From Octopus sinensis (taxonomy: Eukaryota), in NCBI RefSeq assembly GCF_006345805.1, contig NC_043002.1, positions 83,638,001-83,702,000 on the forward strand: a stretch of DNA of 64,000 nucleotides, written 5' to 3'. Position 1 is the first letter of the stretch. Every line of letters starts with the position of its first letter. Below, in pieces: positions 4,076 to 64,000 of this stretch. The notes below the pieces were generated by a model. It was not told the origin of the DNA. It did not search any database and saw only the letters and a list, made by a program, of their open reading frames with translations. Made by a program: the position numbers and the translations under genes.

Positions 4076-4800
4076 TATATATATATATATGAAAACGCGC
4101 GCGTTTACAAACACACACGCATATGTGTATGTGTGAAGGCTTTACTAATTTCTGACACAAAGAATCTCCTATTTTCTTCCACAAAATATAAAATAATATT
4201 TTATACAATAGCATGTACGAGGCTCCTGATGAATTTTTAAAAATCATTGTGTCGCCATAAAAGAAGACTTGAATGTTAACGCAAACCTGGCTCGACCAGT
4301 CAAATCGGTTGGTGTGTAAACCAAATGAACAGAAATCTTCCCGCAAATACTCTTGTCAGTCAAAACTTCCCGAAAAACTCCGTTGAGTTATTAAAAAAAA
4401 GCTAGCAAATTGAACCCCAGACAGAGCCATCTAGCAGTTCTCAGTAAGCCACGACACTCTGTTCCGTGAGATGCTCTATAACCTCTTCAACTTTGTTTAC
4501 TTAACATGCTTGTGCTGTGTTCGACAAGAAGTACTGACCTTGTATTGTAATGCTGAATCATGCACACATTATCTACATTCATAGTTCTCACACTTTCTGT
4601 CTTCAATAACTATGAACTACTTTCGTATCAAGCAAATTGTTTGCAGAAGACTTTCAACTTTTCTATCTGTTATCGCATGGAATCTGTTCTATTAGATCAA
4701 ATATTCGTATGCATGTAAATGCAACCGTTCTGGATTAGTAAAAAGATATATAAAAACTCAAATAAATATTCGTATGGTCATTCTTGCCTTCACATGCAGT

Positions 4801-5214
4801 GGATCTTTTCGGTTCGAACGGCAGTTTTTAACATAATTTCTAGGTAACTAAAAAATTTTAAACTTCGTATACTGGTAGAATGTGTTTATAAAACATCTTT
4901 TTCTCTTGGCTTTATTGAGAAAATTCTATAGTTTGTAAGATATTTGTTGCTTTTTCTTCAATTTCTGCAATTTCAACCAATCACTGACGTCCATTGAGGT
5001 AAAAACCATTCTGTGCCGTATGAATATGTCCCTCGTTTAAGAAACAGATTGGGTTTATTTACATTTGTGAAGAAAAAAAGGTACCTTTCCCCCACCCCTA
5101 ACCCTAACCCTAAAACAGATTGAAATGCAATAGATCGATACTAGGGTCATAATTATGGGTGACAATTTAATATGACACCGCTAGAAAAAACTGCCGTTCA
5201 AACCGAAAAGATCC
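4801..5214. mobile_element. GG-terminal MITE, copy 1 (Merlin-like)
   Basis: ~28-bp TIR ggatcttttcggttcgaacggcagtttt / aaaactgccgttcaaaccgaaaagatcc. Degenerate 8-bp TSD catgcagt/catgaagc. Internal CCCTAA repeats. Confidence 0.8.
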
Positions 5215-7316: not shown

Positions 7317-7635
7317 ACCTCCTTCGGTCATGAATGGCCATGGGATTGCCCCTAGAAAGTTACCCTCCGAGGCACAAATCCGCGTAAGGTTGTTTATGGA
7401 AGACCAACAATCACCCATGCATACCAGCCTCCCCTCTCCACCGATGTCATCCAAGGGAAAGGCTGATACAGCTTGGCAGTGATGCTGCTACTCATTTCTA
7501 CAGCTGTGTGAATTGGAGCAACATAAAATAATGTGTCTTGCTCAAGAACACAATACATAGCGCAGTCCGGGAATCGAACTCACAACTTCATGACTGTGAG
7601 TCCGACGCTCTAACTACTGAGCCATGCGCCTTCAC
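7317..7635 (-). mobile_element. tRNA-derived SINE family C (CORE-like centre)
   Basis: Head gtgaaggcgcatggctcagtagttagagcgtcgg with A box and B box (gttcgattccc), then tgtgttcttgagcaagacac. Homologs at 26618-26955, 62416-62734 and 20628-20820. Confidence 0.8.
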
Positions 7636-8500: not shown

Positions 8501-9424
8501 ATGCTCAGGTGTTCTACCAACAAAAACAACCACTGTCATCGAATTAGCGAATTACGCAGACACGTATGCCCACAATGTGGTTTTTAGGCCAAACCTGCAT
8601 GACACAGCGTGACAAGACTTGTTCCTTGAATCACATGTATAACTATCCAACAGGCTTCTCTTCCACACCGTTGCCGTCTGTTTAATTGTTCTCACATAGT
8701 ATAAGCCAACCAGAAGTTAATAAATAACACTTACGCAAGAAGGCACACAGCAGAATTGAAACTAGGGCCTCATGTTTTGTGGAGCGAGCTTCTTAACCAT
8801 TCGGCCATATTATTTAGAAGTATTTGTGTATGATGCGAAAAAATCGACTCAAAACCTCATGGACAAAATTGAGAGGCGGGTAGCATTATATTCGAGTGTG
8901 AGAAAAAATAGATTGGATAAAATATACTTCTGATTTTTAGCTACAAAAATAGGGATCACTTTATATTTGAGATTTCATTGCATTATACTCGAGTAAATAC
9001 GGCAACTAGAAACGAATTCAAATTATATGAAACATTTCTGTTAACCAAGGTTCACAACCCCGAAGCTTCCGGCTCGATCTCAGCGTGCGGCGCCTTGGAT
9101 TAGTGTCTTCGACCATTGCCGTAGATCTACTGCAAAAATCAGGAGTCTTATAATTGGAATTTGATCGACAAAAACTACGTAAAGAATAAAATATGTGCGT
9201 CGGACAAAAATATATTCTAGTTGTGTATCTTTACACCTAAAGCAGCTTGGTATTTCATCTCTTTCTTGCAGGATGCGTGATACCACCGACTAGATCTCCA
9301 TGAAGGTGGTGCTCCTGCATGGCTGTTGACTGAAAGCAGTAAAGGAAACAAAAAGGAATCCAGTGGACTAGTAAAACAGAGGTAAACATACTAGGGATTT
9401 TCTATTTAGAAAAACGGAAAGTGG

Positions 9425-10300
9425 ATCAGTGCAGCAGTGGATCATGGACTGGCAACTCAAGCTGGCTGTGGACAAATGTACCACCATGCATTTTGGGAGG
9501 AGAAACCCAGCGTCCACCTACTCCCTCCACAACACTGATCTCAAAAAGTCTTCATGTGAACGTGACCTGGGTGTTATTGTCGACAGTGATTTGCGTTGGA
9601 CAAAACACATCGCTAAAATTGTCAAGAAGGCTGAGGGTGTCTTGGCATCACTCACCAAATCCTTTGTGAGCCGCTCTCCGGCTATCTATCTGCGGCTTTA
9701 TATAGCTATGGTAAGACCTCACCTGGAATTTGCATCACCGGTCTGGAATCCCTATCTTGCCCAGGATATCAATCTTCTGGAAGCTGTTCAGCGACGCGCA
9801 ACCAAAGAATACCCTCCATCAGGCATTTGCCATATCCTGAACGCCTTACTTCCCTGGGCATGGACACATTGAAACTCCGACGTCTGGCAGCTGACTTGGC
9901 AGACACCCATAAAATTATCAACCATCGTACAAACAATAACTCTGAGCACCTTTTCAAACTCCACCCATCTAACACCCGTGGACATATTTACAAAGTAAGA
10001 AAACAGCACAGCTCCCATGACTTCAGGAAACATTTCTTCACGCTGAGAGTTGCTGAAACATGGAACAAACTGCCGGCATCAGTTGTTAGTTGTCGGAGTA
10101 CTGCATCCTTCAAAACTTCCATGCTTCCTGAGATTCGCCAACACTACACTTGATTTTCTCCCTTCCATACACACGCAAGCATGTATCTGACTCATACATT
10201 GTTCGCTTTCCAGACATTTCTACATTACTGCATGTACTTTATATGCACTTTCTGACAAGTTGTGGTGCACCTGAGCACTGTATACAATAATTTCATTATA
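9425..10300 (+). mobile_element. 5'-truncated CR1-clade LINE (C-terminal RT region and 3' UTR)
   Basis: ORFs 9429-9808 and 9808-10153 give W..WQL.L...KC..MHFG, ERDLGVIVD, VRPHLEFASPVWNP, LEAVQRRATK, YPERL..LG..TL..RR, RGH, FF..RV...WN.LP. One frameshift in an A-run at ~9805. The 3' UTR ends in an ATT/ATAT tail. Confidence 0.93.
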
Positions 10301-11581: not shown

Positions 11582-12221
11582 CCAAAAATATGTATACACA
11601 CTTCAGGAAAGGAAAAATTTGGGATCTTTTCGGTTTGAACGGCAGTTTTTATTAAATAATTTCCACGTAACTAAACACTTTTAAACTTCGTATACTGGTA
11701 GAATGTGTTTATAAAACATCTTTTTCTCTTGGCTTTATTGAGAAAATTCTATAGTTTGTAAGATATTTGTTGTTGTTTTTTTTCTTCAATTTCTGCAATT
11801 TCAGCCAATCAATGACGTCTATTGAGGTGAAAACATTCTGTGCCGTATGAATATGTCCCTCGTTTAAGAAACAGATTGGGTTTATTTACATTTGTGAAGA
11901 AAAAAAGATATCCTTCCCCCACCCCTTCCCCCCACCTCTAACCCTAAAACAGATTGAAATGCAATAGATCGATACTAGGGTCATAATTATGGGTGACAAT
12001 TTCATATGACACTGCTAGAAAAAACTGCCGTTCAAACCGAAAAGATCCAAAATTTGTATGAATATTTAACTTGTATAAATACCTCTATAAATATAAAAAC
12101 CGCTTTCGATGTTTTATCAAAATACGATAACACAGAGTGCATTGCAATAACATTAAATTAAAATATTTATACAGATTTTTCCCTTCCTGAAGTGTGTATA
12201 CATTTTTTTGGGCGGACTCTG
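11582..12221. mobile_element. Tc1/mariner MITE interrupted by a GG-terminal MITE
   Basis: TIR ccaaaaatatgtatacacacttcaggaaaggaaaaa versus tttttcccttcctgaagtgtgtatacatttttttgg...ctgTA. The left end is clipped. Confidence 0.65.
11622..12048. mobile_element. GG-terminal MITE, copy 2, perfect 8-bp TSD
   Basis: Same TIR as 4801-5214. TSD aaaatttg at 11614-11621 and 12049-12056. Confidence 0.88.
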
Positions 12222-12274: not shown

Positions 12275-12478
12275 TTACTACCCACAAGGGGGACAAACAA
12301 GGACAGACAAACAGATTAAGTCGATTACATCGACCCCAGTGCGTAACTGGTACTTAATTTATCGACCCCGAAAGGATGAAAGGCAAAGTCGACCTCGACA
12401 GAATTGAACCCAGAACGTAACGACGAAATACAGCTACGTATAGCCCGGCGTGCTAACGTTTCTGCTAGCTCGTCGCCT
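12275..12478 (-). mobile_element. SINE family B, tailed subfamily B1
   Basis: Homologous to 50581-50811, including the ttgtctgtccttgtttgtcc...gtgggtagtaaa tail. Confidence 0.75.
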
Positions 12479-13968: not shown

Positions 13969-14705
13969 CAGTTAATACGTGGGCGATGGCATCACTTCAG
14001 TATGGAGTGGCAATTATAAAATGCCAAAAAGAGAAATGATGAAAATGGATACCAAGACCAGAAAAATGTTGACAGTACACGGAGCCTTCCACCCTAAGAG
14101 TGACACCGATAGGCTGTACTTGCCCATAAGAAAGAATGGGAGAGATTTGATCAGTTGCCAGGACTGTATCGAAGCAGAGGAAAGAAGTTTAGGTGGTATG
14201 TAAAAAATGCCGTGGAGCCATTGTTGAAACATGCGAAGGCCGGCTTTTTCAAAACTGAAAATTGTGTAATGAAAGAAAAATTTAAACAAGAAATGAACAC
14301 AAGAAAAGTAAAAGCATAGAAGGAAAAAAAAGTATTGTCAGTTTGCAAGAGATGTGAACGCGAAGACAGATACAGAGAACTGGTGGTTATGGATGAGAAG
14401 GAGTGGCCTGAAGATAAAGACAGAAGCACTCATATGCGCAGCTCTAGAACAAGCGTTAAAGACCAACTATGTGAAGTGCAGAATAGACAACACTACCGAC
14501 AGTGACAAATGCAGAAATTGTGGTGAGAGGGGTGAAACGGTATGGAACATCGTTAACGAGTGCCCGAAATTGGCACAGCGCGAATATAAAAGACGCCGTG
14601 ATAATGTGGAAAGAATGATCCATTGGAAGCTCTGTGGAAATCACGGCATTCAAAGAGCAAAGACGTGGTATGAGAAAATCCCAGAATGAGTCACCATGAA
14701 TGTTG
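13969..14705 (+). pseudogene. R4/Dong-clade RLE non-LTR retrotransposon fragment
   Basis: MDTKTRKMLTVHGAFHPKSDTDRLYLP..GR.L, LK..TEALICAALEQAL.TN, zinc knuckle CRNCGERGETVWNIVNEC, then YKRRRDNV.R.IHW.LC...WYE.IPE. Contains stops and frameshifts. The 3' end is replaced by a SINE. Confidence 0.85.
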
Positions 14706-18842: not shown

Positions 18843-19253
18843 AGCGCAGGAGTGGCTGTGTGGTAAGTAGCTTGCTAACCAACCACATGGTTCCAGGTTC
18901 AGTCCCACTGCGTGGCATCTTGGGCAAGTGTCTTCTGCTATAGCCCCGGGCCAACCAATGCCTTGTGGGTGGATTTGGTAGACGGAAACTGAAAGAAGCC
19001 TGTCGTATATATGTATATATATATAAGTGTGTGTGTATATGTTTGTGTGTCTGTGTTTGTCCTCCTAGCATTGCTTGACAACCGATGCTGGTGTGTTTAC
19101 GTCCCCGTCACTTAGCGGTTCGGCAAAAGAGACCGATAGAATAAGTACTGGGCTTACAAAGAATAAGACCCGGGGTCGATTTGCTCGACTAAAGGCGGTG
19201 CTCCAGCATGGCCGCAGTCAAATGACTGAAACAAGTAAAAGAGAGTAAAAGAG
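18843..19253 (+). mobile_element. Full-length SINE family A (tRNA head, CORE-like cttgggcaagtgtctt, internal microsatellite, gtaaaagag tail)
   Basis: A/B-box head tggctgtgtggtaag...ggttcagtccc. Many homologs: 38696-39080, 41121-41522, 52252-52750, 53594-53920, 37411-37742, 47790-48348. Confidence 0.88.
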
Positions 19254-24761: not shown

Positions 24762-25299
24762 GAAACACACAAGCACGCACACATGTATATATACATGCAA
24801 TGTTTATCGGAGATTCAGTTCGCACATATTGGGGAAATGTCTGTCTCTCCAAACATGCAAAATATTCAAGAACAAGAATATTGATCTCGTCTACCCTGCT
24901 CCGTCTAGCTCTTCAAATATTGTCTCTTTGAAACTCACATAGGGCGCTTCTATGCCGTCATTCGATCAACTAGAAATAACTCCTAAAAAAATTTTCCTCC
25001 TATCACAGCCTACGGCTCAAAACCAAATAAACATAAATGGACGCTGGAAAAAATTGTCAAAGATATACTTTGTCTAAATGGAAGAGACAATCACGTCGCA
25101 GTTGAAATGCCTTTGGTCAAAGGTCTACACGTTGGCAGAACACCTGGGTTTAAGCAACAAAAACAGAAATAGCAATAATGACAACAAGTTGAAAAGATAT
25201 AATCTCTATGTGGTCGTTCGGCCTGCTAAAAATAACACACAAATCGTTTTCGAACTGCACCCTACGTCTCCATAAAAAGACACATTTAATAAAGAGAGC

Positions 25300-25719
25300 G
25301 GATCTTTTCAGTTTGAACGGCAGTTTTTTAAAATAAATTCTAGGTAACTAAACACTTTTAAACTTCGCATACTGGTAGAATGTGTTTATAAAACATCTTT
25401 TTCTCTTGACTTTTTTGAGAAAATTCTATAGTTTGTAAGATATTTGTTCTTTTTTTCTCTTCAATTTCTGAAATTTCAACCAATCAATGACGTCTATTGA
25501 GATAAAAAAAACCATTCTGTGCCGTATGAACATGTCCCTCGTTTAAGAAACAGATTGGGTTTATTTACATTTGTGAAGAAAAAAGATACCCTTCCCCCAC
25601 CCCTAACCCTAACCCTAAAACAGATTGAAATACAATAGATCGATACTAGGGTCATAATTATGGGTGACAATTTCATATGATACCACTAGAAAAAACTGCC
25701 GTTCAAACCGAAAAGATCC
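25300..25719. mobile_element. GG-terminal MITE, copy 3
   Basis: Same TIR and body as 4801-5214 and 11622-12048, with (CCCTAA)3. No clear TSD. Confidence 0.85.
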
Positions 25720-25784
25720 AAGGTTGGTTATAAAGATTATGAGCTCTAAGAAATCGCATTAAAGCTTAAATAACTTCTACTAAT

Positions 25785-26617: not shown

Positions 26618-26955
26618 GACCCCCTTCGGTCACGACACTGACCATGGGATTGCACCTAGAAAGTTACCCTCCAAGTCACAAGTCTGGACGAGGTGGTTTA
26701 TGGAAGACCAGCAGTCGCCCATGCATACCGGCCTCCCCTCTCCACGCCACCAGTGTTATCCAAGGGAAAGGCATAGGGGCCGATAAAGCTTGGCACCAGT
26801 GACGTCGCAACTCATTTCTACAGCTGAGTTAACTGGAGCAACGTGAAATAAAGTGTCTTGCTCAAGAACACAATACGCAACCAGGTCCGGGATTCGAGCT
26901 CACAACCTCACGATCGTAAGCTCGACGCTCTAACCACTGAGCCATGCGCCTTCAC
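26618..26955 (-). mobile_element. SINE family C, full-length
   Basis: Homologous to 7317-7635 and 62416-62734. Confidence 0.85.
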
Positions 26956-27314
26956 ATACGTACGTATATACAGATACATATACGTACACACACGCGCGAA
27001 TACATATGCACAAGCACACATGCATATATTCACATTTATACACGACGGCTTTACACAGCTTTCCGTCAAGCGAATTCACTCATAGGATCTGCAGCTCGAA
27101 GCTTTGTTAGAAGACACTTGTCCAAGGTGCTATGCAGCAGAGATGAATCAGAAACCGTATAGTGTACTGAGATGATACATGCTCAAACTGTTTTGCGTAA
27201 ACATTATCCAAGAGAATTTCGTATAAACTCCTTTATAATGATAAAGACTTCGAAGCTGAAGTACCTCAAACAGGAGTTCGTGATCTTTGTATAAGAACCG
27301 AATAATATAATAAT

Positions 27315-33775: not shown

Positions 33776-34102
33776 AAGACCTTGTTAATTTCAAAGACCC
33801 AGTTAATTCTTTGAAACGTTATTTTTCACTTGGTAGGGCCTATGGAACCGCGACCATTACAGGAATGATCAAAAGGCGAACAATTAAAAAACAACGCAGA
33901 GGTTTCAGAGAAAGCATCGAGATAGTTCTGGCCAAAAAGACCATGACGTCTGAGGTTCAGTAGAAAGCCATCAGGACACGGACCTAGACTTAATCAACCC
34001 AGATCTGGCCGTCTGGCTGAGGATGTGTGTTTCTTATGTCCCGCATTATGACAACGTATCTCGTCTTTGCGGGACTGCCTGAACAACATACCTCGCTGAC
34101 TG

Positions 34103-34551
34103 TATTTCTTTATTGCCTATAAGGACACACAGAGAGGGGACGAACAAGAACAGACAAGAAAGCACAAGTGGGGACAAAAAACATAAACGGATGAATGAAA
34201 TGAAATTATATAAAAATGAAGATGTAATGGCTACTACTCGACCCCACATCCGAGTAGTACCATTTTAACTATATTTTTACACTACTTTTAATCCAGCGTT
34301 TATCTGAATAATTATCTTAGTAAATGCAAAGCGGTTTCAGTTTTTCAAATTCCACCACAGGTGGCAACTGGTCGTATCTTATTTCTAACCCTAATGGGTT
34401 TACTTCGTCTCCAAAGTTTGCTTTCAATTTTTCATAGTTTTTCATGTCAATTAAAATGCATTCCATACCTGGGACTCTTATGTTTTTCCTCTAATTACTG
34501 CCTTCATCTTCCCTATTTTTGCTTCGATGGCTGCATTCGTCCAATAGTTAC
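34103..34551 (-). mobile_element. 5'-truncated ORF1-only L1/Tx1-like element (copy B)
   Basis: Minus-strand translation ...YWTNAAIEAKIGKMKAV...NYEKLKANFGDEVNPLGLEIRYDQLPPVVEFEKLKPLCIY* (stop 34317-34319), homologous to copy A. 3' end caataaagaaata. Flanked by atacctcgctgactg at 34088-34102 and 34552-34566. Confidence 0.75.
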
Positions 34552-34878
34552 ATACCTCGCTGACTGTAATTCTTTATTTTGGCACCTAGGCCATAACATA
34601 GAGGGTACAGCACAAGGACAGAGAGAACACCACAATGGGGACAAAAACATAAAACGAATGAAAAATGAAAGATGTATTAAAATAATAAAATTGATGATGA
34701 TGAAATGGCTGCATTGAGCCCAACTCTTATGCAGTACCATTTAACAGTTAAATTATACAAATTAACAAATCTTTCTTACACACTCTTTTTTTCTTTTAGC
34801 ATCGTTTTTTTTTTTTAATTTTGAAAGCCTATTTTTTTTTCTCTCAATTTTTATAAAATTTTACTTACTTTACTCTTT

Positions 34879-36560
34879 TTAACAGTTCAGTAAGCGTTTC
34901 AAATCTTCATACTCCACGACCGATGGTAATTCGTCGAATTCAATTTCGACCCCTAAATGGTCTATACTACTTCCGAACAGTTCTCTTAGTTTCTCGTATC
35001 TCTCCTTGTCAACTTGCTTTCTTCTGTTTATTTCTCCTGTGGCAGCCTTAATCATATGATTGATTTAAACTTCGTGATCTTCCGCTCGATTGCCGCACTT
35101 CTAGCATATGTACTTACTTACTAGTACTTGTAGCTACATTCACCCTGGGCGGGTTGAGTCGGCTTCTTCTACTCATGGAAGAAGTTTCGTGGGAATATGT
35201 GAATTTCACAAGCGGTCCCCAACAATCCCGCATGTGGAGACATCCTGTTTGCCGCAGATTGCCCGCTGACGCAGGGACAGAACGACCGAGGAGCCGCCGG
35301 TTGCCGAAGCAGACACTCCGAGGATTTTCACCTGAGCCCCGCCTGCCGGGTTGTGGCCCTAATACCACTCGGTGTCAGACCAATCCGCCTTGGGTGGCCC
35401 TACCAGGAACCGAAGTTCCCGACGTCATAGCTCTGACACGTCTAGCATATGTAACCATATGCCACTTGTTTTTTCTCTTTTTAACCAACGTTTGCTTCAA
35501 CGACGGACCTGGGATGTCCGAGCGAGTCTTTTCACTTGGCTCCTCTCTTGGTGTGCCAAAATAAACGTCAATGTCTAAGCCTTCCATACGTGTTGCAATG
35601 ATGTTTCTTGCTGCCACTCTACCTTCCATTGTTGATTCTGCTGGTGTCTCGAACCTGTTCCTCTTCTCCTCCATCTCAATCTCCTTCATCCTTTTCTGGC
35701 TCTCTGGTGGAGAACTCGCCAGTTCTTTCCTTTTCCTCCTATTCACGACGGTGAATGATTCCTCCATCTTTCTCCTTTTCCCGCACTACCACTTCGGTAC
35801 TCCGTTCTTCACTTTTCTGCTCCTTCTCTTCGTTTTCTTTCTGGGGCATCTTGCTTTCATGTACCCCTTTTGACCACTTAAGAAACATGTTAGTGGCCTT
35901 CCTTCCACTACTACTCTTAGTCTAACGTCTTCCGGGAGAATGATCTCCTCTGTGGTCTCGTACAAATCTTTTAGGCTCGCTGGCCATACCTCCATCAATT
36001 AACCTTTTTGGTTCTCGTAATCTTTAAGATTTTTACTTCATCCTCCATTCTGTGCATGACTGCTGCCACCAGCTATGCTTCCTTAATCTCGGTGGATACT
36101 CTGCCGATTCTCACTCTGGCGATGCGTTTGCCAGAGTAAGTTAGCAGAAGTACCCATTCTGGTGTCCTTATCAGCACAGTGGAGTAGTTTATTTCGTCTT
36201 CTTCGTTGCTAAACCTTACTTCCACTGTGCCGTACTTCCTTCCACGTGTATAAAATGTCGTAAGCCTCTTTACGTCCTTGAGGCACTCCTCTATTGCCTC
36301 TATTGGGGCAACCACTATCTTTTTAGAGGACGTAGATAGCGTTCTGTACACCACTGTCCCCTTTACCACATTGTTAATCAATTCTTGAGTCAGCCTCAAA
36401 CTGGCTTTCTATCAATTTACTGCCCTCCTTCCACTTTCTGGGCTCTATCTTAATTTCTCTTACTTCCAGGGCGTTGGTAGATACTCCTTTAATCGTGGCT
36501 GATGCGTAACTTCCAGCTGGTTCATTTTCCATCTCTCCTCTCTTCTCCACTTCACCCATA
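34879..36560 (-). pseudogene. Disrupted gag-like/ORF1 protein (~440 aa reconstructed)
   Basis: Fragments 36374-36577 (GSYASAT), 36073-36399, 35786-35998 (LRVVVEGRPLTCFLSGQKGYMKARCP, a decayed CCHC knuckle), 35454-35767 (basic/acidic linker) and 34879-35112 (YARSAAIERKI...RYEKLRELFGSSIDHLGVEIEFDELPSVVEYEDLKRLLNC*). Confidence 0.7.
35113..35440 (-). mobile_element. Non-autonomous RTE-derived insertion
   Basis: 13-bp TSD tctagcatatgta (35100-35112, 35441-35453). RTE-like 5'-UTR motif agagctatgacgtcgggaac..cctggtagggccaccca and an agtaagtaag tail. Confidence 0.7.
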
Positions 36561-37362
36561 ATTGGGGAAGAAAACAAATATCAAAACAGGCAAAAACAGC
36601 AACAATAGTTCAAAATTTAACAAATTTAACAGATCTTAGGTTCACCCACACGGGGAGACCTTCAATAAGTATAACAAGCAAACGACTTACTCAGAATCAC
36701 AAGTGATTTAACCAAAAATACTACCAACGCGAAAAAGAAAATACCTCGCTGACTGACATTACTGACTGACACAGTCTTACCTGGGGACGTCCGCCGCAAC
36801 AATATTGTAAGGTGTGAAGCATCCAGTGACATGAGATACAACACTGATATCGATACATGTATGCAGAAGTTTTTTTGTGTTTCTCAGTACAGACGAGTCC
36901 CCTCATGTTGTAACATACTTGCAATTCACCCCTGATGCTAATAAGTTACTCTATTGTCCCAACTCTTGTCGTAGAGATTCTTTTTTGTGTTTGCAATAGT
37001 TATATACTTCAGATGAAGGTGGAGTGTCAAACACCATAACTCTAATTTTTCTATACTTTAAAATCAATAACATGGAGTGGCTGGTGTTAGGAAGGGCATC
37101 CAACTGTAGAAACCATGTCAAATCAGGCTGGAACCTGGTGCAGCTCTCCGGCTTATCAGCTCCAGTCAAAATGCAAAGTGGTATAAACGCAAGCGTGGCT
37201 GTGTGGTGAGAAACTTGCTTCCCAACCACATGCTTCAATGTTCAGTATCACTACATAGCATCTTGGGCAAGTGTCTTCTACTTGAGCATGGAATTGGTAG
37301 ACAGAAACTGAAAGAACTTGTATATATATATATATATATATTGATTGATTCTAGTTTCAGTA

Positions 37363-37410
<48 letters not shown>

Positions 37411-37413
<3 letters not shown>

Positions 37414-37742
37414 TCTTTTACTTGTTTCAGTCATTTAACTGCGGCCATGCTGGAGCACTGCTTTAGTCGAGCGTAATTGACCCCAAGACTTATTCTTTGT
37501 AAGTCCAGTACTTATTCTATCGGTCACTTTTGGCGAATCGCTAAGTTACGAGAACGTAAACACACCAGCATCGGTTGTCAAGCGATGTTGGGGGTACAAA
37601 CACACACACACATATATATACATATATACGACGGGCTTCTTTCAGTTTCCGTCTACCAAATCCAGTCACAAGGCTTTGGTCGGCCCGAGGCTATAGTAGA
37701 AGACACTTGCCCAAAGTGCCATGCAGTGGGACTGAACCCGGA
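37411..37742 (-). mobile_element. SINE family A
   Basis: Reverse-complement homolog of 18843-19253, lying between fragments of a + strand copy (37192-37320, 37760-37995). Confidence 0.8.
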
Positions 37743-38248
37743 AGCATTATATATATATATGTGTGTGTCTATGTATGTATATCTATGTGTGTGTGTCTGT
37801 GTCTGTGTTTGTCGCCCACCACCAGTTTTGGTGCGTTTACATCCCATTAACTTAGCGTTTCGGCAAAATTGACCGATAGAATTAGCACTAGGCTTAAAAA
37901 AAAGTTCTGGGATCGATTCATTCGACTAAAACCCTCCAGGGCGGTGCCCCAGAATGGCCGCAGTCTAATGACTGAAACAAGCAAAAGAACAAAAGACAAA
38001 AATGTACATAACAATAAGATTAATAGCGTTGTCCTTGTCATGATCCCAACACGTGTTTGACGGTATAACAATTCGTTCCACTTGGTCATGTTGACCCTGA
38101 GTCAGGGCACGTTTGAAAAAAACTTTTAAAGATAAAGAGAGAAAAGAAAAGACATCCCAGGCAACGCAATAAACAAATATTGACATTTCATAATGTTTTT
38201 GGGTTTTTCTTTCTTTTTCTTTGGTTTTTTTTTTTGGTTTCTTTTTTG

Positions 38249-38348
38249 NNNNNNNNNNNNNNNNNNNNNNNNNNNNNNNNNNNNNNNNNNNNNNNNNNNN
38301 NNNNNNNNNNNNNNNNNNNNNNNNNNNNNNNNNNNNNNNNNNNNNNNN
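38249..38348. other. Assembly gap (100 N)
   Basis: A run of exactly 100 N. Contiguity across it is not guaranteed. Confidence 0.99.
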
Positions 38349-38695: not shown

Positions 38696-39080
38696 GGCCG
38701 CAGGAGTGCTGTGTGGTAAGTAGCTTGCTAACCAGCCACATGGTTCCGGGTTCAGTCCCACTGCGTGGCATCTTGGGCAAGTGTCTTCTGCTATAGCCCC
38801 GGGCCGACCAATGCCTTGTGAGTGGATTTGGTAGACGGAAACTGAAAGAAGCCTGTGGTATATATGTATGTGTGTGTGTGTGTGTTTGCGTGTCTGTGTT
38901 TGTCCCCCAAGCATTGCTTGACAACCGATGCTGGTGTGTTTACGTCCCCGTCACTTAGCGGTTCGGCAAAAGAGACCGATAGACTGGGCTTACAAAGAAT
39001 AAGTCCCTGGGTCAATTTGCTCGACTAAAGGCGGTGCTCCAGCATGACCGCAGTCAAATGACTGAAACAAGTAAAAGAGT
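38696..39080 (+). mobile_element. SINE family A, full-length
   Basis: Near-identical to 18843-19253. Confidence 0.88.
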
Positions 39081-46689: not shown

Positions 46690-47360
46690 GTAAGCTGGTA
46701 GAATCGTTTGCACAGCGAGCAAAATGCTTAGCAGTACTTCGTCCGTCTTTTCATCTTGTATTCAAATTCCGTCGAGGTCGACTTTGCCTTTCACCCCTCT
46801 CAGGGTCGACTAAATAAGTACCAGTTGAACACTGGGGTCGACGTAAACTACTTTCCCTCTCTCGCGAAATTGCTGGCCTTGTGCCATAGTTTGAAACCAA
46901 TATTAAGATGGGCGAAGGCAGCGAGCTGGCAGAATCGTTAGCACACCAGCGGTGAGATGCCAGAAACGCTAGCACGCCGGACGAAATGCTTAGCGGTATT
47001 TCGTCTGTCATTACGTTCTGAGTTCAAATTCCGCCGAGGTCGACTTCGCTTTTCATCCTTTTGGAGTCGATAAGTTAAGTACCAGTTGTGTACTGGAGTC
47101 AATCTGATCGACTGGCCCCCTCCCCCAAAATTTCGGGCTTTGTGCCTAGAGTAGAAAAGAATCGTTAGTACAGCGGGGAAAATGCTTAATAATATTTCGT
47201 CCGCCTTTATGTTCTGTGCTTAAATTCCGTCGAGATCGGCTTGGCCTTTCATCCCTTTCGGGATCGTTAAAATAAATATCATTTGAGTACCGGGGTCGAT
47301 GTAATCAACAGGCCCCCTCCTCGAAAATTTCAAACCTTCTTCGTGTAATAGAAAAGAATA
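46690..47360 (+). mobile_element. Cluster of 3-4 tandem or nested SINE family B copies
   Basis: The unit gagctggcagaatcgttagcac...gtcgactttgcctttcatcc...aagtaccagttg...ggggtcg recurs in the same orientation. Confidence 0.8.
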
Positions 47361-49699: not shown

Positions 49700-50410
49700 A
49701 TTCAAACTGGTCGTGACAGAAGTAACATTACTTGTTATGTATATATGTATGTCTCTTCTATTTTTTAATTATTATAAATCTTCCACTGAGAAACACAGAC
49801 AAATTCACATTTGGAACTTGAGAAAAGTTTTGCATATTTTTAATGTTCCACTCACAGATTGCACTTGTAATGTACAAATTAGCTGGTCAATTTCTCTTTC
49901 TGAAAATCCCAGTTTATCTACATTCTCCTTTAAGCATTTGCAAACAAAAGCTACTGCTCCAATTATTATTGGTATGAATATGAATTCATAGTCTGGATAT
50001 AGAAGCTGGAGGTTTTGAGGCAGTTGTCTATAGACATCCTCCTTTTCTTTGTTTTTCAAAGAGATATCTATATCTAACTTCTGTGATGGTACATACCTTT
50101 GCCCCTCTATCCCAAACAACAATATCCGGCTTGTTATGCTTACATTTAACAAAAGTTTTGATGGGAATATTCCACCAGTATTCCTTGAGTTTATGGATGT
50201 ATTCCATAATAGAGGGATTTTCTAAGTTGATTTCAGGACAGTCTTTTTTCGCGGATGGCATTGTAAATTGTTTTAGCAACAACCTTGTGCCGCATAGGGA
50301 GGTAGTAACGTGATGACATTTTAGGACAGCTGCTAATCACATGCGTGATGTCTTCTCAGAAACATGACATGGCCTACACATGCGGTTGCACTTTAGATTA
50401 CAAGAGCGTC
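49700..50410 (-). pseudogene. 3' fragment of an RLE-encoding non-LTR retrotransposon (R4/Dong-like)
   Basis: CRPC...DITHVISSCPKMSSRYYLPMRHKVVAK (CCHC plus RH motif), HNKPDIVVWD...TEV (PD..E nuclease), KE..Y..L, IPIIIGAV. Stop at 49805. Frameshifted. Confidence 0.82.
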
Positions 50411-50580: not shown

Positions 50581-50811
50581 GGCGGCGAGCTGGTAGAAAC
50601 GTTAGCACGCTGGACGAAATGCGTAGCCGTATTTCGTCTGCCGCTATGTTCTGAGTTCAAATTCCGCCGAGGTCGACTTTGCCTTTCATCCTTTCGGGGT
50701 GGATTAAATAAGTACCAGTTACGCACTGGGGTCGATATAATTGACTTAATCCGTTTGTCTGTCCTTGTTTGTCCTCTCTGTGTTTAGCCCCATGTGGGTA
50801 GTAAAGAAATA
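50581..50811 (+). mobile_element. SINE family B1, full-length
   Basis: tRNA-like head ggcggcgagctggtagaaacgttagc...gagttcaaattcc, central gcctttcatcctttcgggg...aagtaccag, tail ttgtctgtccttgtttgtcctctctgtgtttagcccc...gtaaagaaata. Confidence 0.88.
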
Positions 50812-53593: not shown

Positions 53594-53920
53594 AGGCGCA
53601 GTAGTGGCTCTGTGTTAAGTAGCTTGCTTGCCAACCACACGGTTCCGGGTTCAATCCCATCGTGTGGCACCTTGGGCATGTGTCTTCTACTATAGCCTCG
53701 GGCCGACCAAAGCCTTGTGTGTGGATTTGGAAGACGGAAACTGAAAGAAGCCTATCGTATATATGTATATGTATATATATGTGTGTGTGTTTGTGTGCCT
53801 GTGTTTGTACCCCCAACATCGCTTGACAACCGATGCTGGTGTGTTTACGTCCCCGTAACTTAGCGGTTCGGCAAAAAGAGACCGATAGAATAATTACTAG
53901 GCTTAGAAAGAATAAGTCCT
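53594..53920 (+). mobile_element. SINE family A, 3'-truncated
   Basis: Homologous to 18843-19170. Confidence 0.85.
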
Positions 53921-53930
53921 GAAAGAATAA

Positions 53931-54485
53931 GCACGCCGGGCAAAATGCTTTACGGCATTTCGTCCGTCTTCGCGTCCTGAGTTCAAATTCTGCCGAGGTT
54001 GATTTTGTCTTTCATCCTTTCAGGGTCGATAAATTAAGTACCAGTTACGCACTAGGGTCGAGGTAATCGTTTGTTTGTCCTTGTTTGTACCCTCTGTGTT
54101 TAGACCTTTTTAGGTAGTAAAGAAATAGGTATTTCGTCTGCCGCTACGTTCTGAGCTCAAATTCCGCCGAGGTTGACTTTGCCTTTCATTCTTTCGGGGG
54201 TCGGTTAAATAAGTACCAGTTACGCACTGTGGTCGATATAATCGACTTAATCCGTTTGTCTGTCCTTGTTTGTCCTCTCTGTGTTTAGCCCCTTGTGAGT
54301 AGTAAAGAAATAGGTATTCCGTCTGTCTTAATGTTCTAAGTTTAAATTCCGCCAAGGTCGACTTTTCCTTTCATCCTTTCGAAGTCGATAAAATAAGTAC
54401 CAGCTGAGTACTGGGGTCGATATAATAGACTATCTCCCTCCCACAAATTTCAGACCTTGTGCCTATAGTAGAAAGGATTATTATT
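53931..54485 (+). mobile_element. Head-to-tail SINE B/B1 trimer
   Basis: Junction aaagaaata|ggtatt at 54127/54128 and 54312/54313 (period 185 bp). Confidence 0.85.
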
Positions 54486-60677: not shown

Positions 60678-60893
60678 ATCTTTTCTACTGGAAGCACAAA
60701 GCCTCAAATTTTGGGGAAGTGATTAAGTCGATTATATCGACCCCTTTGTGTAACTGGTACTTATTTAATCGACCCCAAAAAGATGAAAGGCAAAGTTGAC
60801 CCCGGCGACATTTGAACTCAAAACGTAGCGATGAGCGAAATACCGCTAATCATTTCGTCTGACGTGCTAACGATTCTGCCAGCGCGCCGCCTT
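60678..60893 (-). mobile_element. SINE family B inside an (AAT)n tract
   Basis: Reverse-complement homolog. A second, deleted copy lies at 60400-60570. Confidence 0.8.
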
Positions 60894-62415: not shown

Positions 62416-62734
62416 TTTTTCGGAGACCCCCCCTTCGGTCAGGAATGACCATGTGATTGCACATAGAAAGTTACCCTCCGAGGCACAAGTCCGGGCAAGG
62501 TTGTTTTGTGGAAGGCCAGCAGTTGCCCATGCATACCAGGCTTCCCTCTCCACACCACTGATGTTATCCAAGGGAAAGGCAAAAGGCAACTCATTTCTAC
62601 AGCTGAGTTAACTGGAGCAACGTGAATTAAAGTGTCTTGTTCAAGAACACGACACGCAGCCTGGTCCGGGAATCGAACTCACAACCTCACGATCGTATGT
62701 TCGACGCTCTAACCACTGAGCCATGCGCCTTCAC
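62416..62734 (-). mobile_element. SINE family C with TSD
   Basis: Homologous to 26618-26955. atctagga is duplicated at both ends. Confidence 0.85.
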
Positions 62735-64000
62735 ATCTAGGACTACATTCTTCTATATGTCCCTTTTTTTTCAAGATAAAGAGCGTTGACTCCTTTTTCT
62801 GAAGAATTTAGTTGATGTTTCTAACACGTCAATCGACCATACTGAGGCTCCTTCGTGACCTTGAGCTGTTGATGGTGAAGGTGTTGCATATAAACTGAAG
62901 TAGTCACGATTTCAGCTCCAGACAACATTACATAAAGTGAAAAAAAAAATTAAATATTAAAAATAAAGTTAAAATAGAATTGAAAAGGTTATATTTTATA
63001 TTATTTTTATGTCATCCAAAGTTTCGGTTGAGCAAGATTTATTGTAAACGACGCAGTCGCTTTATTTTCTTTATTTTTAAAGTTTACGTGCAAGAACATT
63101 AAGTTTGTTTTGTTGTTGTTGTTGTTGTTGCTGTTGTTGCTGTTATTGTTGTCTTTTTTAACAATAGATTTGAAATCACAGTCCGGCAATATTGTACTTT
63201 GACTGACTTGCTTGACAACTTCTTTATCGTTGCAGAAGCAATTGTTAATCGCTGGCTCAATTCACTCAGCCATAAATATGTAACATTATATAAACTGCGG
63301 GAGTGCTTAGTGGTGGTGGTGGTGGTGGTGGTGGTTGGAGGTTTCATACTCGAGGACACAGTTAAAACCAGGACTGATAAAGGCCTGGAATGAAAATACA
63401 GCTTTGCATTTACTTCGTCTGGCATTCCAATGACCTTGCCGATTAGCCGCGTAGAATTGATCTATTTTTATTGATTTATGTATACAAGCACAAGAGACTG
63501 AATTATTATTGTTTTTCTTGTTACTTCTGATTGTTGCTGTTGTTGTTGTTGTTGTTATTGTTGTTTTGCCCCATTCAGCGTTCATTGACCAAGGCTTTAA
63601 TCAAGAGAATTTCTACTACGACCATCCTATCTTTGCAAATACTGATAAGGCACAGAAAGTGTGTCAATAGCCAACTGGAGGAGATGTCCTCCTGGTGCTA
63701 CAAGCAACAGTAGCATCAACCCTTAAGGGTTAGCCACATTTAAGTGGCAAATATACTTCACGTTGTCTTGCAGCTATTGTTTATACCTTGCTCAGAGATT
63801 TATTATAGCATCCTATCTTTTTATCTTTTTTTATCTTAGCCTATTGTTCGATTTAACACCAGCATTTGATCCTTAGTTGCCTACACAGAGTTCACTCTGT
63901 TAGCAGCTTTTGCGTCCGGTTTCCCATTTTTGGATAGCTTCCTTTCTTCTTTATTTACCAAAACTCAGAGACCCAGGCGAACCGAATCGCATTTTCATTT

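What the first reader, a model, noticed from the sequence alone, without database searches (positions are those of the whole stretch)
34103..34165. The ORF1-only element and SINE B1 share their 3' terminal ~55 nt
Seen: copy B 3' end (minus) ttgtctgttcttgttcgtcccctctctgtgtgtccttataggcaataaagaaata versus the SINE B1 tail ttgtctgtccttgtttgtcctctctgtgtttagccccttgtgagtagtaaagaaata (54256-54312; also 50755-50811 and 12275-12312). Neither ends in poly(A). Known: shared 3' ends indicate stringent recognition by one RT. Inference: a three-tier system of an unseen autonomous Tx1/L1-like LINE, an ORF1-only element and a SINE.
Basis: partly seen in the sequence, partly recalled or inferred. Interest (0 to 1): 0.7.

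Follow-up and report, generated by a model that had tools for sequence, protein, structure and literature searches.

The report
Octopus SINE shares half-LINE tail
In what is likely an octopus genome, a short repeat (SINE) ends in the same 55-base tail as two broken retrotransposons that carry no copying enzyme, which likely means all three borrow the enzyme of an unseen Tx1-like retrotransposon family that would recognise this tail rather than poly(A).

Summary
The last 55 nt of copy B match three SINE tails at 43-45 of 57 columns and end on the same base. No shuffle of 2000 reached the score. There is no poly(A). The 12275-12312 copy is a deleted, cut-short version.

B (34551-34103) is a 5'-truncated relative of a full-length element A (36740-34567). 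They lie in tandem between three exact copies of a 15-bp target duplication. Both go from the ORF1 stop straight into the 3' UTR. The ORF1 is collinear with an intact 404-aa Octopus protein predicted as RRM-RRM-CCHC. No APE or RT was found.

The tail is not an inserted SINE fragment: A-B homology runs about 180 nt through it, and the SINE body is absent. Only 4 of 23 copies of this SINE carry the tail, so it is likely a tail swap.

'One RT' is overstated. The tails are only 68-79% alike, the insertion sites differ and no conserved hairpin was found. The autonomous partner is unseen; Tx1/L1 is inferred, and no octopus genome could be searched. Verdict: a known kind of system in an unusual setting.

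The parts
34567..36740 (-). Element A: apparently full-length (2,174 bp) ORF1-only non-LTR retroelement, decayed
   Evidence: Bounded by 15-bp direct repeats; ORF1 pieces collinear with intact P0038
34879..36559 (-). ORF1 of A, broken by at least 4 frameshifts and several stops: predicted RRM-RRM, degenerate CCHC knuckle (about 35880-35840), low-complexity linker, conserved C-terminal block (about 35110-34882)
   Evidence: model of relative P0038
34567..34878 (-). 3' UTR of A (312 nt); the last ~180 nt are homologous to B, the last ~56 nt to the SINE tail
34103..34551 (-). Element B: 5'-truncated divergent relative holding the ORF1 C-terminal block (stop 34317-34319) and a ~215-nt 3' UTR
34103..34157 (-). 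Tail of B shared with the SINE, with AATAAA at 34114-34109 and no poly(A)
36741..36755 (-). Target-site duplication, 5' copy (15 bp)
34552..34566 (-). Target-site duplication copy between A and B
34088..34102 (-). Target-site duplication, 3' copy
50581..50811 (+). Full-length SINE (231 bp) with the shared tail (50755-50811), in a (GTAT)n-like context
12275..12477 (-). SINE copy whose shared tail is internally deleted and cut short; 5' flank (GTAT)n
53930..54127 (+). SINE unit with the shared tail (54071-54127); its 5' part resembles the other-tail subfamily, so likely a host/insert chimera
54128..54312 (+). Headless SINE unit with the shared tail (54256-54312), tandem to the previous one; body 92% identical to the 50.6-kb copy
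54313..54478 (+). Remainder of a SINE of the same head/body with the other tail, likely the host of the two insertions

Best explanation
A and B are ORF1-only non-LTR retroelements that share their last 55 nt with one tail variant of an abundant SINE, likely because all of them are copied in trans by an unseen Tx1/L1-like APE-RT family that would recognise this poly(A)-less tail. Shown: co-terminal tail homology; the tail belongs to the A/B 3' UTR; ORF1 is followed directly by the UTR in both copies; two copies sit at one site between exact 15-bp repeats; the SINE occurs with two different tails. Predicted: the RRM-RRM-CCHC fold of ORF1. [quoted passage not shown]
For: Tail statistics. B vs SINE identity per 20 columns from the 3' end is 15, 13, 16, then 6-12, whereas B vs A stays at 12-17 for 180 nt. 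B's tail scores 5-8 against 13 of 13 other-type SINE tails. The 15-mer occurs 3 times, only around A and B; 6e-5 expected per 128 kb. P0038 (O. bimaculoides A0A0L8HJ83) matches A from the RRMs to the last block, and matches B's last block. No APE or RT Pfam hit in 47 of 53 ORFs of 40 aa or more in the region. Model pLDDT 85-97 over residues 21-220 with two beta-alpha-beta-beta-alpha-beta domains; top Foldseek hits are tandem-RRM proteins; Atlas neighbours carry zf-CCHC. PMC5203782 ties RRM/CCHC ORF1s of non-mammalian animals to Tx1. PMC13282606 lists 80 L1-Tx1 families, 56 Mb, in O. vulgaris. PMC4494074 reports tandem same-site insertions sandwiching a TSD for a SINE likely mobilised by Tx1.
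Against: No autonomous element was seen, so RT phylogeny is impossible. Type I ORF1 is not unique to Tx1: PMC5203782 cites Jockey-superfamily elements with every ORF1 type, and PMC10294476 reports an unplaced I-superfamily clade in Octopus. No conserved hairpin: 0 consensus pairs; only 1 of 7 single folds had z below -2. 3' junctions differ: A and B are followed by CAGTC, the SINEs by GGTAT, CGTAT or (AT)n. No clean TSD around the two free SINE copies. Only 2 ORF1-only copies and 4 SINE copies were examined, with no family consensus. The tail is T/C/G-rich, although shuffles control for that.
Confidence: 0.6

Rival explanations
1. Same three-tier system, but the autonomous partner is not Tx1/L1. 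It would be the unplaced Octopus I-superfamily clade or a CR1-type LINE with a type I ORF1.
For: PMC10294476 passages: 16 O. sinensis elements in an unknown I clade. CR1 covers 62 Mb in O. vulgaris. RRM+CCHC ORF1s occur in several clades. No sequence hit links this ORF1 to a named Tx1 element.
Against: Repeated same-site insertion with a 15-bp TSD fits target-specific Tx1. 'I' covers only 0.5 Mb in O. vulgaris against 56 Mb L1-Tx1 and 11 Mb L1. That CR1 usually ends in short tandem repeats is recalled; no such repeats are here. The window's CR1-like fragment lacks the tail.
Confidence: 0.2
2. The tail is shared by history only. The SINE picked it up in one template switch, but mobilisation is relaxed: the RT uses the A-rich end or the AATAAA/AGTAAA region and does not read the 55 nt.
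For: No conserved structure. 21-32% divergence between tails. [quoted passage not shown]
Against: A and B keep about 70% identity in the tail although synonymous sites in their ORF1 end are near saturation (pS 0.72, pN 0.30, 41 codons), which points to constraint on the 3' UTR. There is no poly(A) for a relaxed RT to bind. The tail switch goes with a change of flank from (ATT)n to (GTAT)n in the few copies seen.
Confidence: 0.12
3. Reverse direction or contamination: the tail on A and B is SINE-derived, either a separate SINE fragment inserted at each end or an ancestral capture of a SINE tail by the ORF1-only lineage.
For: B's tail is slightly closer to the SINE tails (43-45/57) than to A's (41/59). 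SINEs are dense and nested here.
Against: The tail lies inside the TSD in both A and B. It ends at the same base in two deeply diverged copies. A-B homology crosses the SINE boundary without a break. No SINE body or extra duplication precedes it. SINE tails are young (49-55/57 alike) and a minority variant (4 of 23).
Confidence: 0.05

Closest known systems
HAL1 (half-L1), HeT-A and other ORF1-only telomeric Jockey elements, Ag-Sponge (CR1)
   Same: Non-autonomous LINE derivatives that encode only ORF1 (PMC5786205 and PMC5753468 passages). ORF1-only lineages can give rise to new ORF1-only families (PMC13534243 passages), as A and B suggest.
   Different: Here the ORF1 is a predicted type I RRM-RRM-CCHC protein with an extra conserved C-terminal block, not the type II ORF1 of mammalian L1. 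It is interstitial, not telomeric, has no poly(A), and shares its tail sequence with a SINE. Search one search listed no Tx1-derived ORF1-only family.
Crocodilian SINEU / Tx1-Mar system (PMC4494074, parts 2-4 of 5 read)
   Same: SINEs likely mobilised by target-specific Tx1 elements, with tandem copies sandwiching a TSD.
   Different: SINEU has U1/U2 heads and poly(A) tails, and no LINE shares its 3' end. Here the link is a shared poly(A)-less tail and the head is tRNA-like.
Stringent SINE/LINE pairs with L1 tails: maize ZmSINE2/3 with LINE1-1_ZM; Chlamydomonas SINEX-3_CR with L1-1_CR (PMC3472496, PMC3747384 passages)
   Same: A SINE and an L1-clade element share a 45-80 nt 3' end.
   Different: The maize pair has a conserved stem-loop and the algal pair ends in poly(A); both are in plants or algae. 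This one is in an animal, with no detectable conserved fold, and the visible partner lacks ORF2.
Tail-swapping mollusc and metazoan SINEs (MetaSINEs, PMC4824008 passages); octopus OK/OR1/OR2 SINEs (Ohshima and Okada 1994, not seen)
   Same: One head/body with alternative 3' tails, attributed to a change of partner LINE.
   Different: The partners reported there are CR1 and L2 or unknown. By eye the body does not match the BivaMeta/BivaMD sequences in supplement part 1 of 4. Whether this SINE is one of the named octopus families could not be checked.

Membership tests
ORF1-only non-autonomous LINE (HAL1-like) | Encodes a LINE ORF1 homologue | tested here: met
   Predicted tandem RRM plus CCHC; 168 relatives at E<=0.001; collinear with intact P0038
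ORF1-only non-autonomous LINE (HAL1-like) | No APE/RT ORF between ORF1 and the 3' end | tested here: met
   312 nt (A) and ~215 nt (B) from stop to end; no APE/RT Pfam hit in 47 of 53 regional ORFs. A few terminal ORF2 codons cannot be excluded.
ORF1-only non-autonomous LINE (HAL1-like) | Retrotransposed as such (TSD, 5' truncation) | tested here: met
   15-bp TSD three times; B is 5'-truncated
ORF1-only non-autonomous LINE (HAL1-like) | Multicopy family sharing the ORF2-less structure genome-wide | not testable with these tools
   No octopus DNA collection; 2 of 2 copies in the window lack ORF2
Tx1 clade (L1 group) | RT phylogeny within Tx1 | not testable with these tools
   No RT in A or B; no partner in the window
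Tx1 clade (L1 group) | APE endonuclease in ORF2 | not testable with these tools
   ORF2 absent
Tx1 clade (L1 group) | Type I ORF1 (RRM + CCHC) | tested here: met
   (zf-CCHC in 4 of 101 rows); not exclusive to Tx1
Tx1 clade (L1 group) | Target-specific insertion | tested here: inconclusive
   Two insertions at one site, but a single locus; target matches no Rfam family
Stringent SINE/LINE pair | Shared co-terminal 3' sequence | tested here: met
Stringent SINE/LINE pair | Conserved 3' stem-loop with compensatory changes (common, not universal) | tested here: not met
   0 consensus pairs in 5 sequences; single folds disagree
Stringent SINE/LINE pair | Partner is an RT-encoding LINE and the tail is needed for mobilisation | not testable with these tools
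   Needs a genome search and a retrotransposition assay
tRNA-derived SINE (SINE2) | tRNA-related head with A and B boxes | tested here: inconclusive
   B-box-like stretch near 50656-50668 by eye (consensus recalled); ARAGORN and Rfam found no tRNA
tRNA-derived SINE (SINE2) | Short, non-coding, interspersed, high copy, exchangeable tail | tested here: met
   23 copies in 64 kb, two tail types

The most novel reading that the evidence does not exclude
Octopods harbour an old, self-diversifying lineage of ORF1-only retroelements that forms a split LINE. ORF1 and ORF2 would ride on separate RNAs united by one poly(A)-less tail that a Tx1-like RT reads stringently, and a tRNA SINE joined this system by a tail swap that retargeted it from (ATT)n to (GTAT)n sites and to its own body. 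It would be an animal L1/Tx1-clade case of stringent recognition, with the SINE's tail taken from a non-autonomous element.
Probability: 0.12. Interest if true: 0.75.

Novelty: new variant of a known kind. Interest (0 to 1): 0.45.

Why it matters
[quoted passage not shown] An animal SINE whose poly(A)-less tail matches an ORF1-only, probably Tx1-derived element would give a natural test of whether Tx1 RTs recognise their RNA stringently. It would also add Tx1 to the clades known to make ORF1-only derivatives. Practically, it names a partner for part of the 250 Mb of unclassified octopus SINEs (PMC13282606 supplement) and flags 'uncharacterized' Octopus proteins such as A0A0L8HJ83 and A0A0L8I5B4 as retroelement ORF1. 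The components are all of known kinds and repeat databases could not be checked, so the interest is moderate.

Tried and rejected
1. Separately inserted SINE fragment: rejected (inside the TSD, continuous A-B homology, no SINE body).
2. The last coding block as an ORF2 remnant: rejected because it is the C-terminus of the intact 404-aa P0038. A direct search with it among longer proteins found nothing in 48 candidates.
3. Tandem duplication of A's end to make B: rejected; 62% nucleotide identity and pS 0.72 over 41 codons. A second block in that script was mis-framed and is ignored.
4. Conserved tail hairpin: none.
5. Target as a structured RNA gene: no Rfam match at 33.7-37 kb; the 132 weak hits are almost all microsatellite-type.
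6. PDB sequence search with the ORF1 profile: nothing better than E 0.095. VIA-align gave only generic ACT/RRM-type folds, Z up to 8.2. Human L1 ORF1p was not among the listed matches, which is no evidence of difference.
7. 100 of the 150 listed hits were aligned (plus one window piece). The 50 left out were mostly short fragments, plus false positives P0109, P0111, P0135, likely fused gene models P0003, P0058, and P0001, P0046. None of the 101 rows had an RT or APE hit apart from one zf-RVT at E 0.026, and none of the 28 longer hits scanned had one. This is weak evidence, since ORF1 and ORF2 are separate frames.
8. The taxonomic range of the relatives stayed open, apart from two UniRef names. 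Prokaryote, phage and plasmid collections were not searched as irrelevant; viral and metagenome collections stayed unchecked.
9. Albertin 2015 and the Tx1L target paper were not held.

Full report
Context. The window is repeat-rich eukaryotic DNA. The two named protein relatives are Octopus bimaculoides UniRef records, at 65% identity over part of the query and P0038. The host is therefore inferred to be an octopus. No octopus DNA collection was available, so all DNA evidence comes from these 64 kb.

Observation. The B tail (34157-34103, minus) matches the SINE tails at 54256-54312 and 50755-50811 at 43 of 57 columns, and a further copy at 54071-54127 at 45 of 57. All end on the same base. For each of four SINE tails, 0 of 2000 dinucleotide shuffles reached the score. 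In a scan of both strands the four SINE tails were the best non-self loci (29, 27, 27, 20), ahead of A (19) and the best unrelated window (18; median 7). A's tail matches less well (40-41 of 59) and not significantly against the damaged 12-kb copy (94 of 2000). That copy has an internal deletion and fades into (AT)n. None has poly(A). An AATAAA or AGTAAA hexamer ends 6 nt before the terminus.

Anatomy of A and B. One 15-mer occurs exactly three times in the window: 36741-36755, 34552-34566 and 34088-34102 (6e-5 expected). It brackets A (36740-34567) and B (34551-34103), read as two insertions at one site. A has a 181-nt 5' UTR, an ORF1 with at least four frameshifts and several stops, and 312 nt from stop to end. 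B is 5'-truncated, begins in a short stretch matching both target and element, and keeps the ORF1 end plus ~215 nt. The order of the two insertions cannot be fixed.

The protein. A 111-aa piece found 168 proteins at E<=0.001 among 1.84 billion representatives. P0038 (404 aa, intact) matches A in order from the N-terminal domains to the last block (38% over 39 aa) and B's last block (39% over 41 aa). So that block ends ORF1, and both copies go from the ORF1 stop into the UTR. No APE or RT hit was found in 47 of the 53 ORFs of 40 aa or more in the region (the six unscanned are four flank ORFs and two plus-strand ORFs inside A). An AlphaFold model of P0038 from 101 sequences (mean pLDDT 75.9, pTM 0.53) shows two RRM-topology domains. 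Foldseek's best matches are tandem-RRM proteins (E 1.2e-4). zf-CCHC is found in 4 of 101 rows and in the Atlas neighbours. This is a type I ORF1, which PMC5203782 (passages) links to Tx1 in non-mammalian animals while noting that other clades have it too. A and B are old relatives: 51% amino-acid identity, pS 0.72 and pN 0.30 over 41 codons. Both lack ORF2 and their shared UTR block starts at the same point. A common ORF1-only ancestor is the simplest reading (inference).

Whose tail. From the 3' end, B vs SINE identity per 20 columns is 15, 13, 16, then 6-12; B vs A stays at 12-17 for 180 nt. The tail is thus a native part of the A/B UTR and an add-on in the SINE. BLASTN with the full SINE gave 25 rows: the B tail and 24 head/body rows from 23 copies. 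Four of the 23 carry this tail. Most others with a readable end carry a different one, and 13 of 13 such tails score at background (5-8) against B. The copy at 60684-60891 has the same body variant but the other tail, which marks the junction.

Insertion sites. The two free copies with the shared tail have (GTAT)n 5' flanks. Three of eight other-tail copies with both flanks listed sit clearly in (ATT)n, and most others end in ATT-like sequence. At 53930-54478 two shared-tail units of unequal divergence (78% and 92% to the 50.6-kb body) lie in tandem, each followed by the same position of a SINE body. This reads as repeated insertion into a host SINE and parallels A and B. Because that position is homologous in every copy, the apparent duplication is not independent evidence. 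The 3' junction sequence differs from that of A and B, although GTAT(GT) lies at the 5' junctions of A, B and the 50.6-kb SINE. No clean TSD is seen at the free SINE copies.

Mechanism. Most likely (0.6): an autonomous APE-RT element of a Tx1/L1-like clade binds this tail and primes reverse transcription at preferred sites. It mobilises ORF1-only RNAs in trans, and the SINE gained the tail by template switching from a sibling of A and B. Each of these steps is inferred. Against it: no partner was seen, no conserved hairpin was found, the tails are 21-32% apart and the targets differ, so 'one RT' should read 'one clade of RTs'. Rivals: a non-Tx1 partner (0.2; an unplaced Octopus I clade is reported in PMC10294476 passages); relaxed recognition with a historical tail (0.12); SINE-to-element transfer (0.05).

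Comparison with what is known. ORF1-only LINE derivatives are known from L1 (HAL1), Jockey (HeT-A) and CR1 (Ag-Sponge) (PMC5786205 and PMC5753468 passages). Such lineages can diversify (PMC13534243 passages). SINE tail exchange is established (PMC4824008 passages and supplement part 1 of 4). SINEs likely mobilised by Tx1 are known (SINEU; PMC4494074 parts 2-4 of 5) but have poly(A) and no shared tail. Tail-sharing pairs in the L1 clade numbered three in a 2012 survey, in maize and Chlamydomonas (PMC3472496 and PMC3747384 passages). O. vulgaris has 80 L1-Tx1 families and 1,279 unclassified SINE families (PMC13282606, first third of the text and whole supplement). Passages of PMC9115989 and PMC4758252 added nothing on this pair. 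Ten searches listed no description of this octopus pair or of a Tx1-derived ORF1-only family. Repbase, Dfam, SINEBase, Ohshima and Okada 1994, Albertin 2015 and unread supplements could hold one.

Verdict. A real feature. It works like a stringent SINE/LINE partnership with a HAL1-like middle tier. Membership in ORF1-only LINE derivatives is met; membership in Tx1 is likely but untestable here. New variant of a known kind; interest 0.45.

Noticed in passing
window 53930-54478 (+): Nested SINE array: two shared-tail units of different divergence, each followed by the same position of the SINE body, then a remainder with the other tail. Looks like repeated self-targeted insertion. A similar SINE-into-SINE join with the other tail is at 46949-47360.
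   Followed up: partly
window 50581, 12477 versus 60891, 60571, 32770: Tail type tracks flank type: (GTAT)n for the shared tail, (ATT)n for the other tail. This suggests the tail swap changed the partner LINE and the target. The (ATT)n type may belong to Dong-R4 (recalled target, untested).
   Followed up: partly
window 60684-60891 (-): SINE with the body variant of the shared-tail subfamily but the other tail; marks the swap junction.
   Followed up: partly
window 34316-34209 (-): After B's ORF1 stop one frame has two short open stretches, and a block conserved with A starts near 34268/34755. Could be the last codons of a lost ORF2; untestable here.
   Followed up: partly
window 36741-36900 and 33826-34102 (-): The target locus is unique in the window, has short TCAG repeats just upstream of the site and two GT splice-donor-like motifs; no Rfam or Pfam match. 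Its identity is unexplained.
   Followed up: partly
window 4798-5214, 11622-12050, 25297-25721: Three copies (91-93% identical) of a ~420-bp element with ~30-bp terminal inverted repeats; MITE-like.
   Followed up: no
window 9375-10153 (+), 14312-14689 (+), 49805-50221 (-): LINE ORF remnants: CR1-like, and two RLE-type (Dong/R4/Hero-like) C-terminal pieces (labels recalled; only 14312-14689 had a weak Pfam hit, zf-RVT E 0.002). None carries the shared tail.
   Followed up: partly
window 18844-19233, 38699-39079, 37413-37747, 53596-53919; and 7317-7635, 26619-26957, 62429-62736: At least two further abundant interspersed SINE-like families.
   Followed up: no
proteins P0003, P0058, P0001: Gene models in which pieces of this ORF1 appear fused to host-like proteins (WD40 in P0003) or duplicated; likely annotation artefacts from element insertions.
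   Followed up: no
window 38249-38348: 100-N assembly gap 1.5 kb upstream of element A.
   Followed up: no
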